DNA of 64,000 nucleotides from Gammaproteobacteria bacterium. Lineage in GTDB: Bacteria > Pseudomonadota > Gammaproteobacteria > JAJFKG01. The notes below the pieces were generated by a model. The model did not search any database. It was given only the letters and a program-made list of their open reading frames with translations, and was not told where the DNA came from. A program made the translations under genes and the position numbers. The stretch is taken from contig OZ220716.1 of the NCBI GenBank assembly GCA_965116795.1, positions 970,503 to 1,034,502 on the forward strand, given 5' to 3'. Below are positions 46,543-58,320 of the stretch, piece by piece; the stretch's first letter is position 1, and each line of letters begins with the position of its first letter.

Positions 46543-46614
46543 TATACTCAACGCATTTTGAATTTAGGCGAGGCGTAGCCAACAAAGACCTAAATTTAAA
46601 ACGTGAAGAGTATA
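46543..46614. repeat. Short (72-bp) ERIC-like palindromic element between rplF and rplR
   Basis: TATACTC...GAGTATA termini, long hairpin; looks like an internally deleted version of 11158-11320. Confidence 0.8.
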
Positions 46615-54012: not shown

Positions 54013-55206
54013 TTATAATGCTTTAGACAAGCGCCAATAGATTAGCAAACTGATCCCAGCAAAGAGTACCAATAGAGTACCCATTGGGATTTGGTTGTGT
54101 TCCGGCACAAATAACACCAAAACCAAACACAATGTAACGATAAGCAATCGTATTCCCCCTAATAAAGCAGCGGCCATGCCTGTGCCTACATTAAGACTGC
54201 TAAAGGTAATGCTGCTCGCCGCTGGCATGATCAACCCGATCCCTGCACTGTTAACGCTGGTTGGCAAAATTAACACCCATATATTGAGAATGTCGCACAA
54301 TCCAATTGCCAATAAGCTAACACTGCCCAGCAAACACGATAGTAATCCAGCAAATACCAATTTACTGGGTGTTTGTGATGTGCTGAAGTAATTTACTGAA
54401 AATGCACCCACTATAAATCCAATCGCATTGGCAATATAAACAAAGCCATTTTGTGCGGGGGATAAACCGAGAACTAATTGATATAAGAAGGGACTCATTA
54501 ATAAATAGGTTAAGCCAATTGCAAGACAAGTACCGGATAACAAGGTGCTGTGTAGGAAAGTGCGATTGCGAATAAGGCTACAATAAGCGGTTAGCATAGT
54601 GTTTAGGCTTAGTTGAGTTAAGCGTTTTTCTTTAGGTAATGTTTCTGGCAAACCGTATGCGAGTGATATTAACAATATCACTGCCCACATACTTAAAAAA
54701 ATAAATGTCCAACGCCAGCCCAATGTTTGTTGAATAACACCGCCTAACACGGGTGCCAGTGCCGGTGAAATGTTAATTGCCATCGATAAATAAGAGAATG
54801 ATTTTAATAATTTAATGCCACTGAATCGATCACGCAACACCACGCGTGCAGTGATGATTCCCGCACCGCTACCAAAGGCACCAACAAAACGCGCAATCAT
54901 TAAATGAGTGAGTGATGTTGCGCATGCAGCAAACACATTACCCATTAAACAAATGCTTGCGCCGATAAACACAATAGTTCGCCGCCCAAAGCGATCACTA
55001 AGTGGGCCATATACAAATTGTGATAAGCCAATACCTAATGAATATACCAGTACAATGGCTTGGATGTGATCTGCATCAGTGTTGAAGTGATACATGATAC
55101 TCGGCAATGCCGGATTAATTAAATCGATAGAAAAAAATGACAGTGTGATGAAAAAACATACGAGAAAAATAATGCGAGCATCGGATGTGGAGGTGTTAGT
55201 TGGCAT
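54013..55206 (-). CDS. MFS drug:H+ antiporter, Bcr/CflA-like
   Basis: Motif A GPLSDRFGRR, PALP, APVLGG..GWRW, LPET. Confidence 0.92.
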   Translation of the reverse strand: MPTNTSTSDARIIFLVCFFITLSFFSIDLINPALPSIMYHFNTDADHIQAIVLVYSLGIGLSQFVYGPLSDRFGRRTIVFIGASICLMGNVFAACATSLTHLMIARFVGAFGSGAGIITARVVLRDRFSGIKLLKSFSYLSMAINISPALAPVLGGVIQQTLGWRWTFIFLSMWAVILLISLAYGLPETLPKEKRLTQLSLNTMLTAYCSLIRNRTFLHSTLLSGTCLAIGLTYLLMSPFLYQLVLGLSPAQNGFVYIANAIGFIVGAFSVNYFSTSQTPSKLVFAGLLSCLLGSVSLLAIGLCDILNIWVLILPTSVNSAGIGLIMPAASSITFSSLNVGTGMAAALLGGIRLLIVTLCLVLVLFVPEHNQIPMGTLLVLFAGISLLIYWRLSKAL

Positions 55207-55344: not shown

Positions 55345-55840
55345 CCAGCTAGCCAGACAGTCGCTGTGTAATATTTTTTACATGGAGGAAAGTCCGGGCT
55401 CCATAGGACAACGTGCCAGGTAACGCCTGGGCGATGTGTGATAAGCGCATTGACGGAAAGTGCCACAGAAAAGATACCGCCAGTTTAGAGCACGCCGTCA
55501 AGTTAAGATTTTTGCTGTAAAGACAAGGCAAAAATACCGAGGAAAGCGGAGTTTATTTATTATAAATGAGCATTTTCGAGGTGTTTTTAACGCTGTATTT
55601 ACACAAAAAGATAATTTGACGGCGTGCTCTAGTGGTAAGGGTGAAAAGGTGCGGCAAGAGCGCACCGCGCTGTTGGTAACAACAGTGGCAGGGTAAACCC
55701 CACGGGGAGCAAGACCAAATAGGAACTCGTTGTAAAGTGGTCCGCTTAAGAGTTCGGGTAGGTTGCTTGAGGTGTATGGTGACATACATCCTAGATAAAT
55801 GACTGTCCACGACAGAACCCGGCTTATCGGCTAGCTATCC
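55345..55840 (+). ncRNA. rnpB: RNase P RNA (type A) with a large P12 insertion
   Basis: GAGGAAAGTCCGGGC, GGAAAGTGCCACAGAAA, GGTAAACCCC, ACAGAACCCGGCTTA; P1 AGCTAGCC/GGCTAGCT. Confidence 0.97.
55486..55631. mobile_element. 146-bp RPE/ERIC-like MITE inside rnpB P12
   Basis: Perfect 16-bp TIR TAGAGCACGCCGTCAA / TTGACGGCGTGCTCTA, TA at both ends, core shared with the ITS element. Confidence 0.85.
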
Positions 55841-56301
55841 TCTAATTTGTGCCCGGCTTCGCTTACAGCTACGCCGAGGCAAGCCCGATAAGAAACTATA
55901 GTCGATAGTATGCAAACACATAACACATTACCGTCTTTCTGAATCAACAGATAGCACTATTATAACCAATCATTTTTCATTAATTGTATTAACCAATTGT
56001 TCAAATAGTTAATAAAAATGTGTTATTGATCGCATGACAGTGATGTATGGTATAAATAGTTAATCATATGTTGTGCCCGTCAGGTAATGTTAATACAGAA
56101 TAGATAAAAATTTGTCAGCTTACGTTTTATATTTTCTAAGGGTATCATTTTATTTAATATTATTTAGGATTAGAGATAATTAAATAAATATGTTAGCATC
56201 GCGAAAAGTTGGTGTTTAATAAATATAACATTATTATTAACATTTTTAACGCCAATAAAAATTAATAACTAAACAAGATAATAAATATAGGAGCAAGGGT
56301 T

Positions 56302-58320
56302 ATGGATCCTGGTAATAGAGAAGGTGGTACAAAACAAGGTTTAACAAAACGTCGAACTACTGATGGGCAGTCTTCTAGACCGTTTACACAAGGTAGTGTT
56401 AATCCTAGCCAAAGACAACTTACTTTTACTGGCCCCATTATTGCTTCTTCATCATCTTCGTCCTCGTCAGCGAGTTCTACAGCTATTAGTCTACTTTTAA
56501 ATAAGCCCAATGAACCCCGGCATCAAGATAGTAGTGTTGTCTTGCATGAAGAATCCAATCAACTAGTTCTAGATAAACCAATTCAAGAAATACTACTTAA
56601 AACTATAAATGAATTACGCGATGACATTACTAGTATGAAGCTTGAGCCACTCCAGGAAAGCGAACTGTTAAGAGTGGTAAATGATACTGCGGCCAAAGTG
56701 CGTAACACTACTAAGAAGACAGCAGAATTTAGTGAACAAGCATCACCTAGTACTCAAACTGAAGACAGTAATCAGTTGTCTAGTAAGACAGGGGGGCTAG
56801 TAGAAGTACGTGCAATGATTGAAGGATTAAATGAGCTTCTACGCAAATTCAAAACTTATACTACTCACTCCACTTCTCAATATTTCTTATCTTATATTTT
56901 CGGAGCAGGCCAACAAAATCAAGTATTCCAAGCAAAGCTGAAAGCTTATCTTAACTCATTACATATTATTATCCATGCAGGCTCCGAGCAAAAACAGGCA
57001 TTAGACTTTGAGAGAAAACAGTTACTAGATCAGTCGACGAATTCTTCGTACGATGTTGAACGGTACGAGCAACAAAGTCAGCTCTTAATAGCAAAAGACC
57101 AGCTAATATTAGAGCAAGCACAACAAATAACAGAATTACAAAGAAAACTTACAGAATCAAACAGGGAAAATGAACATTTAAGATTACAACAGGGCAAGAA
57201 GTCAGAAATTATTTTCGCTGATGTACGAAAAAATCCATATACAACTATTGAGTTTCCGACTGCGCTTATCCCCGAATCTAAACTGTATATACTCTATAAT
57301 GGCTCTTATTCAAAAGAGAGTATTAATTCATGGTTAAGTTATTTTTTATCTCCTGAGAAATATTTACTGTTTCAAGCAAGCATGGCATATCGCTCAGAAT
57401 TGGCTACGATGATGTCCGCAAGTAATGTAGATAAAAGTAATCCGGTCAATGGCTCTGAAGCTAAAAAAGCCTGGGTAGCTAGAGCTGAGTTACATAACTT
57501 ACTGGCTTTTTCACTGAATTGTTTACTCTTTGATGATACGGTTGGTGAGATCATTGAACGTGCTAAAGGCCACCCATACACTCGGCAAGCATACGAACTG
57601 TATAAGGGAAATGAGAGTTATAATTATAATGGCGAAGATGAGAGTAAGAAGGGAGCTGTTGCTTATCAATATTGTCAGCAGGATGAGCAGCAAGGCAAAG
57701 TACATCACCTTAGATTCGCTCAGTTAAATGAGATGTCTGATGGTTTAGTACCTTTTAGTCCTGGTCAAGATGAAGATGCTGCGACATCAGGTTTTCCAGG
57801 TGAGGAATTTCTTACTAAGAAGGTATTCGAAGTGTTACCGGAGCAGTGCGAGCAGCAGTTTGAAACCTTACACGATGGCTGTAGTGAAGAAAATAAGCAA
57901 TTTTTAAAAAGATTATTTGCAGGACAGGATGTTGAATCAGTGACTCATTTTGTGCGCTATCGACAAGAGACTTTGTCACAGCAGGTAGCTCACTCTGGTG
58001 GTTTTAAAACTGTTTCAGAAGTTTATCAAGAAGTGTATCAACAACGTTTTGCTTGGCAGAGATCGTCCGGTTTAGAAAAGATATTATCACGTAATGGTTT
58101 TTCTCACTTTATTGCTCAGCAATCAGATGGAAGAGTGTTTAAAAAACTTGAGTTGGATACTCGAGTTTGCCAAGATAATTTTGAAACAACGTATTTGATG
58201 TGGGTTGATGGTTTTAACCCAAAGCCACAAATAGAGAAGACAAAGCTAGAGATGAAAGAGGAAGAGGTATCTTCCAGTGAGGACAAGAGTATGAGTAGTG
58301 TATCTCTAGGTCATGGGTAA
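56302..58320 (+). CDS. Orphan coiled-coil protein, putative secreted effector
   Basis: 672 aa, Ser-rich disordered N-terminus, heptad region (QQITELQRKLTESNRENEHLRL), Glu-rich C-terminus (EMKEEEVSSSED), AT-rich upstream region. Confidence 0.7.
   Translation: MDPGNREGGTKQGLTKRRTTDGQSSRPFTQGSVNPSQRQLTFTGPIIASSSSSSSSASSTAISLLLNKPNEPRHQDSSVVLHEESNQLVLDKPIQEILLKTINELRDDITSMKLEPLQESELLRVVNDTAAKVRNTTKKTAEFSEQASPSTQTEDSNQLSSKTGGLVEVRAMIEGLNELLRKFKTYTTHSTSQYFLSYIFGAGQQNQVFQAKLKAYLNSLHIIIHAGSEQKQALDFERKQLLDQSTNSSYDVERYEQQSQLLIAKDQLILEQAQQITELQRKLTESNRENEHLRLQQGKKSEIIFADVRKNPYTTIEFPTALIPESKLYILYNGSYSKESINSWLSYFLSPEKYLLFQASMAYRSELATMMSASNVDKSNPVNGSEAKKAWVARAELHNLLAFSLNCLLFDDTVGEIIERAKGHPYTRQAYELYKGNESYNYNGEDESKKGAVAYQYCQQDEQQGKVHHLRFAQLNEMSDGLVPFSPGQDEDAATSGFPGEEFLTKKVFEVLPEQCEQQFETLHDGCSEENKQFLKRLFAGQDVESVTHFVRYRQETLSQQVAHSGGFKTVSEVYQEVYQQRFAWQRSSGLEKILSRNGFSHFIAQQSDGRVFKKLELDTRVCQDNFETTYLMWVDGFNPKPQIEKTKLEMKEEEVSSSEDKSMSSVSLGHG

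What the first reader, a model, noticed from the sequence alone, without database searches (positions are those of the whole stretch)
55486..55631. 146-bp palindromic MITE inserted in the P12 loop of RNase P RNA
Seen: rnpB is about 495 nt, against 377 nt in E. coli. The excess is one element with a perfect 16-bp TIR and TA at both ends. Removing it with one TA restores a compact P12 hairpin, ACCGC-cagttta-GTGGT. The net insertion is 144 bp (48 codons) and is stop-free in one plus-strand frame (ORF 55460-55696) and almost so on the minus strand, so it could also sit in-frame in proteins. Known: Rickettsia palindromic elements insert into coding and structured RNA genes, and P12 is a length-variable helix. 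Inference: an independent gammaproteobacterial case of a coding-compatible palindrome living in an essential ribozyme.
Basis: partly seen in the sequence, partly recalled or inferred. Interest (0 to 1): 0.72.

Follow-up and report, generated by a model that had tools for sequence, protein, structure and literature searches.

The report
Jumping hairpin lodged in RNase P
This bacterium's only gene for the tRNA-trimming ribozyme RNase P carries a 146-base palindrome in the tip of an outer helix; it is likely a harmless miniature transposon of a kind already known from Rickettsia, and related hairpins sit in the same gene in at least four other bacterial lineages.

Summary
Real. The single rnpB gene (55345-55842, 498 nt) carries a 146-bp TA-bounded palindrome in the P12 tip (16-bp perfect TIR, folding z -10.7), seen unchanged in other sequencing runs; relatives have a short P12. 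Its ends occur nowhere else in the genome and match no transposase, but its central hairpin (covarying, strand-specific) is shared by about 75 palindromes here and by 57 of 400 genomes of the class. One 47-copy sibling family has the ends of a resident IS630, which points to TA-targeting MITEs. Same-core elements entered rnpB separately in four other lineages (P12) and twice more in one of them (P3, P16/17), all in one orientation. 'Coding-compatible' is weak for this copy (1 of 6 frames open, chance 0.18), though a sibling sits in frame in dsbA. Best reading: an RPE-1-like MITE, tolerated because it folds on itself; retention or excision from the RNA is untested. Precedent exists (Rickettsia RPE in M1 RNA; excised P12 expansion in Thermodesulfatator). 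The scan earlier noted a different repeat in P12 of another genome. New member of a known kind; the recurrence and the IS630 link add interest.

The parts
55345..55842 (+). rnpB, RNase P RNA class A, 498 nt; single copy in the genome
   Evidence: RF00010, 311 bits; one match in G000
55476..55485 (+). 5' strand of the native P12 base
   Evidence: Rfam alignment; fold
55486..55631 (+). 146-bp TA-bounded palindromic element in the P12 tip; 36% GC against 51% for the rest of the gene
55486..55501 (+). left 16-bp terminal inverted repeat, starting with TA; unique in the genome
55520..55599 (+). about 80-bp inner module conserved at 72-94% in many genomes of the class, with purine-rich internal loops
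   Evidence: 57 of 400 genomes; alignment A1; model R1 77 bits
55546..55572 (+). core hairpin (8 pairs around a 3x2 purine loop), shared by the whole repeat superfamily
55616..55631 (-). right 16-bp terminal inverted repeat, ending in TA
55632..55640 (+). 3' strand of the native P12 base
55460..55696 (+). 78-codon open frame over the element; likely incidental
   Evidence: no NCBIfam match; chance 0.175
11158..11320 (+). sibling element (family F, IS630-type ends) in the 16S-23S spacer
11538..11617 (+). second sibling element (core module) in the 16S-23S spacer
   Evidence: R1 50 bits
46543..46614 (+). 72-bp collapsed family-F copy that has lost the core

Best explanation
The only RNase P RNA gene of this genome carries a 146-bp TA-bounded palindrome in the tip of helix P12, and its central hairpin is shared with about 75 other palindromes in the genome; it is likely a miniature transposon (MITE) of the RPE-1-like kind, likely put into a TA by an IS630-type transposase no longer present, and likely tolerated because it is predicted to fold on itself and merely lengthen P12. 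Shown: position, ends, fold, repeat superfamily, short P12 in relatives, IS630 ends on a sibling family, recurrence in other lineages. Inferred: the transposase for this copy, the 2-bp TA duplication, an active ribozyme and a near-neutral effect. Not known: whether the hairpin stays in the mature RNA or is cut out; its 20-pair uninterrupted basal helix and an intact rnc gene make trimming by RNase III plausible.
For: Anatomy. Repeat superfamily: 28 core matches in G000 against 0, 1 and 0 in three shuffles; 28 matches with model R1; 47 further elements of family F, 34 with a core variant, 36 with TA at both ends. IS630 link: family F's left end is identical at 24 of 26 positions to an end of a TA-flanked IS630 in G000 (NF033545 199 bits). 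Empty-type P12 in G001 and G002 and in the other 25 of 27 relatives' loci that could be read. Self-contained fold: 57 expected pairs within the insert, 0.08 to the rest of the RNA. Host genes intact: one rnpB, rnpA and rnc present. Tolerance over time: in family f131, 9 of 31 genomes carry a long decaying copy in P12 and 2 more a collapsed remnant, across three genera. Literature: RPE in Rickettsia M1 RNA and a 146-bp TA-ended RPE (PMC2229807, passages); P12 sometimes dispensable (PMC2858038, passages).
Against: This copy's ends match no IS in G000 (5 of 26 positions to the IS630 end) and no inverted pair in 400 other genomes. No exact empty allele, so the TA duplication is not proven. No transposase was found inside the ends of the nearest subfamily either (33 stretches from 5 genomes). 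The RPE1 protein profile finds nothing in G000 or in 5 other carriers. The strand-specific fold and the 7-of-7 orientation are not explained by a plain DDE MITE model. No RNA data for this organism.
Confidence: 0.75

Rival explanations
1. The insertion is a MITE, but the RNA does not keep it: the long helix is cut out after transcription (RNase III or E), giving a two-piece RNase P RNA, as shown for the P12 expansion of Thermodesulfatator indicus.
For: 20-pair uninterrupted helix; rnc present; A/U-rich insert, 36% GC; in T. indicus about 70 nt of P12 are excised in the host and in E. coli (PMC9945441, passages).
Against: No RNA run of this organism was available; decayed copies in f131 fold poorly (-36.7 kcal/mol for L039) yet persist, so cutting is not evidently needed. 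Compatible with the best explanation as to origin.
Confidence: 0.35
2. The central hairpin, not the ends, is the working part: a strand-specific RNA or single-stranded-DNA motif that is bound or processed by a protein and is favoured in stable RNAs, so insertions in rnpB are targeted or selected in one orientation.
For: Core conserved across phyla while ends differ; 4 of 8 pairs with compensatory changes, 0 of 500 shuffles as high for pairing and covariation; arm mismatches in the core-forward strand G-T 48 vs A-C 15 and A-G 56 vs C-T 2 in fetched loci, G-T 42 vs A-C 7 in G000, G-T 47 vs A-C 14 in family F; 7 of 7 separate rnpB insertions core-forward (two-sided binomial 0.016); also core-forward in two 16S-23S spacer copies, a 23S-5S spacer and a tRNA cluster.
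Against: Copies are related, so the mismatch counts are not independent. Next to protein genes both orientations are common (20 of 28 face an opposing gene; 33 of 47 a co-oriented one); one copy lies reversed before a tRNA (L122). Coreless collapsed copies survive, in P12 too, and the core decays in f131. A reversed insert is still predicted to fold on itself, 17 kcal/mol less stably.
Confidence: 0.2
3. P12 simply grew by local duplication and slippage, and the hairpin is not a mobile element.
For: P12 is length-variable (9 to about 100 nt without any core in L045, L047, L109); the ends are unique in the genome.
Against: The inner 80 bp match intergenic repeats in 57 of 400 genomes and 27 other places in G000; sharp TA-bounded ends; GC content unlike the host gene.
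Confidence: 0.03

Closest known systems
Rickettsia palindromic elements, RPE-1 (Ogata et al. 2000, 2002; seen only through the reviews PMC2229807 and PMC10969869, passages; the 2002 paper is not held)
   Same: 105-146-bp stem-loop palindromes, one of 146 bp with TA at both ends; inserted in M1 (RNase P) RNA and tmRNA genes; in-frame insertions in proteins (here one sibling in dsbA). The centre of the RPE1 profile TIGR01045 maps onto the same hairpin core in one bridging genome.
   Different: Other host class; different ends; this copy is single and fails the RPE1 profile; in-frame copies are rare here (1 of about 75) against nearly half in R. conorii. That the Rickettsia insertion lies in P12 is recalled, not read.
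IS630-mobilised TA-targeting MITEs (RUP of Streptococcus pneumoniae; ERIC and Correia/NEMIS as TA-ended kin), PMC2229807
   Same: Short non-coding element, TIR, TA at both ends, long stem-loop; sibling family F shares ends with a resident IS630.
   Different: The rnpB copy has no partner IS; the superfamily is united by an inner hairpin carried between several unrelated end types.
P12 expansion segment of Thermodesulfatator indicus RNase P RNA (PMC9945441, abstract and passages)
   Same: Long A/U-rich extension of P12 in a functional type A RNA.
   Different: No mobile-element origin in the passages read; excision shown there, untested here.
STRR repeats in cyanobacterial rnpB (Vioque 1997; recalled, not read)
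   Same: Repeat DNA tolerated in P12.
   Different: Tandem heptamers, not a TIR-bounded palindrome.

Membership tests
Bacterial RNase P RNA class A | Full-length match to RF00010 above the gathering score | tested here: met
   311 bits, model 1-367
MITE (non-autonomous TIR element) | Short, no transposase, terminal inverted repeats, stable stem-loop | tested here: met
   146 bp, 16-bp perfect TIR, z -10.7; no protein family
MITE (non-autonomous TIR element) | Target-site duplication shown by an empty allele | tested here: inconclusive
   TA at both ends, but G001 and G002 P12 are too diverged to align as the empty site; no precise-skip joint in 4 runs
MITE (non-autonomous TIR element) | Several copies in the genome | tested here: inconclusive
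   One copy with these ends; about 75 with the shared core or sibling ends
MITE (non-autonomous TIR element) | Autonomous IS with matching ends | tested here: not met
   None for this copy; met for sibling family F, IS630, 24 of 26
RPE-1 | Match to the RPE1 domain profile TIGR01045 above cut-off | tested here: not met
   0 in G000, 0 of 5 carriers, 0 of 33 open frames
RPE-1 | Nucleotide homology to a Rickettsia RPE-1 | tested here: inconclusive
   No Rickettsia copy could be fetched; indirect: the single sub-cut-off RPE1 hit in 401 genomes (22 bits, profile 17-35) coincides with an R1 hit of 37 bits
RPE-1 | In-frame insertions inside protein genes | tested here: inconclusive
   0 of 28 core copies inside a real gene; 1 of 47 family-F copies in frame in dsbA, no empty allele
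RPE-1 | Insertion in structured RNA genes | tested here: met
   rnpB here and in other lineages
REP / RAYT | 20-40-nt palindromes flanking a Y1 transposase | tested here: not met
   146 bp; three of the 7 Y1_Tnp copies were inspected and are plain IS copies without the core, the other four form a 570-bp IS
Excised P12 expansion segment | Fragmented RNA in vivo | not testable with these tools
   No RNA run of the organism among 24 listed
Known Rfam family | Core matches a curated RNA family | tested here: not met
   None in the window at gathering; only chance-level hits in 10 loci at E up to 1

The most novel reading that the evidence does not exclude
RPE-1 is one branch of a cross-phylum superfamily defined by a strand-specific hairpin module that rides between the ends of different TA-targeting insertion sequences (IS630 shown for one family here, which would name the long-missing mobiliser of such elements). 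RNase P RNA is a recurrent, orientation-specific sink for it (P12 in five lineages, P3 and P16/17 once each; one gene holds three), because the hairpin has an RNA-level activity, such as directing its own removal or binding a host protein.
Probability: 0.2. Interest if true: 0.72.

Novelty: new member of a known kind. Interest (0 to 1): 0.45.

Why it matters
The single insertion repeats what is known from Rickettsia. The added value is comparative: the same hairpin module entered the same essential ribozyme at least seven times in unrelated lineages, always the same way round, and one lineage shows the whole course from full element to decay and collapse. A sibling family ties the module to IS630 ends, which makes the open question of how RPE-like elements move testable. 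It also gives natural long-P12 RNase P variants for asking whether such helices are kept or cut out.

Tried and rejected
Second copies with the same TIR: none in G000 up to 2 mismatches in 16 or 6-7 in 26; in 401 genomes 56 have a match at 1 mismatch, about as many as the backwards control, none as an inverted pair outside G000, and the five inspected lie in coding-like sequence. Autonomous IS for the nearest subfamily: none in 33 stretches from 5 genomes. Plasmids: 2 records match only the inner 80 bp; L034 and L040 queries gave nothing useful. Genome scan: of 10 hits I dropped 5 (L033, L035, L037 have a normal P12; L032, L036 are not rnpB). Metagenome scan: 3 of 3 were chance. Long P12s without the core: L045, L047, L109; L180 looks like a degenerate relative of L031 and was not counted. 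The rnpB tree of f131 was too weak to use; the AnmK tree (28 of 30 loci, L060 and L073 lacked the gene, L127 not included) interleaves long and short P12 but was not put to a clade test, so one old gain with losses and repeated gains stay open. Promoter and terminator scans are at chance level. Runs with small word shares and the skipping joints belong to other organisms and were not used; excision in RNA or DNA therefore stays untested. Papers: Ogata 2002 not held; searches found no report of this superfamily in rnpB outside Rickettsia or of an RPE-IS630 link, but most subscription papers are not searched; PMC5896051 (Coxiella QMITEs, term search) had nothing on rnpB, RPE or IS630; PMC1779305 passages gave only general RPE background. 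No supplements were read.

Full report
Observation. Rfam places a class A RNase P RNA at 55345-55842 (498 nt, 311 bits) with the surplus in the P12 loop. It is the only copy in a closed 2.45-Mb genome, and rnpA is present. The surplus is 55486-55631: 146 bp, TA at both ends, a perfect 16-bp inverted repeat, folding as one hairpin at z -10.7, 36% GC against 51% for the rest of the gene. Contigs of other runs carry it unchanged (X3 whole, X7 across the left junction), so it is not an assembly error. The genus and family relatives G001 and G002 have short P12 helices, as do all 27 relatives' loci that could be read out of 30; 3 of 138 full-length genes in a class sample exceed 450 nt. The class is Gammaproteobacteria: a Rickettsiella record (L039) has the same P12 as L066, whose genome is listed as same class.

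What it is. The ends are unique in the genome. The middle is not. A 27-nt hairpin core occurs 28 times in G000 against 0-1 in shuffles, in several subfamilies with different, mostly TA-bounded ends. The inner 80 bp match 57 of 400 genomes of the class at 72-94%, never with this copy's outer arms (two candidates scored per genome, so a floor). In 36 aligned copies the core has 8 pairs, 99.7% of cells paired and 4 pairs with compensatory changes, above 500 of 500 shuffles and all slid controls (the structure was derived from this alignment and the rows are related). It matches no Rfam family. Mismatches in the arms favour G-T over A-C and A-G over C-T in one strand, and that strand folds better in 26 of 28 and 43 of 47 copies, so the fold has a preferred strand; in rnpB that strand is the RNA.

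Link to a transposase. A TA-flanked IS630 lies at G000:C1:1315253-1316452 (its reading frame is in pieces). Its ends led to a further family, F: 47 elements, 34 with a core variant, 36 with TA at both ends, whose left end equals the IS630 end at 24 of 26 positions. The P12 element of the Rickettsiella family has the same end type (16-19 of 26). So core-bearing palindromes are, at least in part, IS630-type MITEs. The rnpB copy itself shares only 5 of 26 positions with that end and matches none of the IS ends examined; its mobiliser is inferred to be another TA-targeting transposase that has since gone. No partner was found in 400 other genomes.

Recurrence in RNase P RNA. One scan of 185,579 genomes with a pattern that allowed both orientations gave 10 hits, 5 of them true P12 insertions with the same core: L031 (labelled gammaproteobacterial MAG, atypical rnpB), L034 (Fibrobacterales), L038 (Mariprofundaceae), L039 (Rickettsiella), L040 (Aquirickettsiella). 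Their ends differ, except the last two, and their sampled relatives lack the core in the rnpB loci (3 hits in 90 loci, the three known ones). Four of these five genomes hold further core copies (8, 51, 4 and 21 matches; 1 in the Fibrobacterales genome). In the Rickettsiella family, 9 of 31 genomes have a long, partly decayed copy and 2 a collapsed remnant, over three genera. One of them, L127, carries two more core elements, in P3 and at P16/17. Counting the family's P12 element once, that is 7 separate insertions, all core-forward (two-sided binomial 0.016). The exact-match pattern misses decayed cores, so this is a floor. Next to protein genes both orientations occur.

Coding compatibility. 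One of six frames across this copy is open, which shuffles give 17.5% of the time; no frame matches NCBIfam and the RPE1 profile is silent in G000. None of the 28 core copies lies inside a real gene. One family-F copy (128 bp, net 42 codons) does sit in frame at the start of the dsbA signal peptide; relatives' DsbA begins with a plain signal peptide, but no empty allele is at hand. So the property exists in the superfamily but is rare here.

How it likely works. Shown: the insert is predicted to pair almost only with itself (57 pairs inside, 0.08 outside) and to stack on the native P12 base. Known: P12 lacks the universally conserved residues and is sometimes dispensable (PMC2858038, passages). 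Inferred: a transposase dropped the element into a TA in the P12 loop, one of the few places in this essential gene where a self-closing hairpin does little harm, and it was kept by drift; later fates are decay and collapse, as in the Rickettsiella family and in the 59-72-bp coreless F copies. Whether the mature RNA keeps the helix is open: a 20-pair helix and an intact rnc allow cutting, as shown for T. indicus (PMC9945441), but no RNA run of this organism exists among 24 listed.

Comparison. It works like a Rickettsia palindromic element: same size, TA ends, insertion in M1 RNA (PMC2229807). Membership of RPE-1 is not shown: the profile test fails. The only RPE1 hit in 401 genomes, below cut-off, falls exactly on an R1 core match, which suggests common descent of the core. 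As a MITE it meets the anatomy but lacks an empty allele and a partner IS. An earlier scan note (e1-9851809, unchecked) reports another hairpin repeat in P12 elsewhere; L181 shows a REP-like repeat in P12 too, so P12 collects several repeat kinds.

Verdict. Observation confirmed, interpretation partly supported. New member of a known kind; interest 0.45, owed to the recurrence, the one-way orientation and the IS630 link rather than to this copy alone.

Noticed in passing
window 11158-11320 and 11538-11617: The 16S-23S spacer of the only rRNA operon holds two elements of the same superfamily, both core-forward, and no tRNA was detected in it.
   Followed up: partly
G000:C1:1315253-1316452 and 47 sites genome-wide (one at window 46543-46614): A 47-copy MITE family with the ends of a resident IS630; full 126-128-bp forms, longer forms with small hairpins nested inside, and coreless 59-72-bp forms. 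33 of 47 have a co-oriented gene on their 3' side, often within 10-90 bp, and may supply a ribosome-binding site.
   Followed up: partly
G000:C1:528972-529099 (L248): A family-F copy inserted in frame (42 codons) at about codon 4 of dsbA, in the signal-peptide region.
   Followed up: partly
L127 (G187:C1:589465-590605): One rnpB gene with three elements: full copies in P3 and at P16/17 and a coreless remnant in P12; Rfam misplaces its 5' end because of the P3 insert.
   Followed up: partly
window 55851-55886: A 36-nt REP-like hairpin right after rnpB, with 20 BLAST matches in the genome; a similar repeat lies inside P12 of L181.
   Followed up: partly
L117 (23S-5S spacer), L112 (between tRNA genes), L122 (before a tRNA gene): Core-bearing elements flush with stable-RNA genes in the relatives G002 and G001.
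   Followed up: partly
G000:C1:1720848, 2359683, 1612302: Core copies interrupted by a short second hairpin placed inside or just after the core.
   Followed up: no
L045 (G083) and L109 (G214): Long P12 helices (about 130 and 85 nt) without the core; L109 is built of short tandem repeats.
   Followed up: no
G000:C1 about 95-147 kb, 316-367 kb and 1.06-1.54 Mb: Many 70-90% identical multi-kilobase repeats, which look like a family of integrated elements or prophages, plus at least six multi-copy IS types.
   Followed up: no
window 56302-58320 and 54013-55206: rnpB is flanked by a 672-aa ORF with no NCBIfam match and by a Bcr/CflA-type MFS transporter gene.
   Followed up: partly
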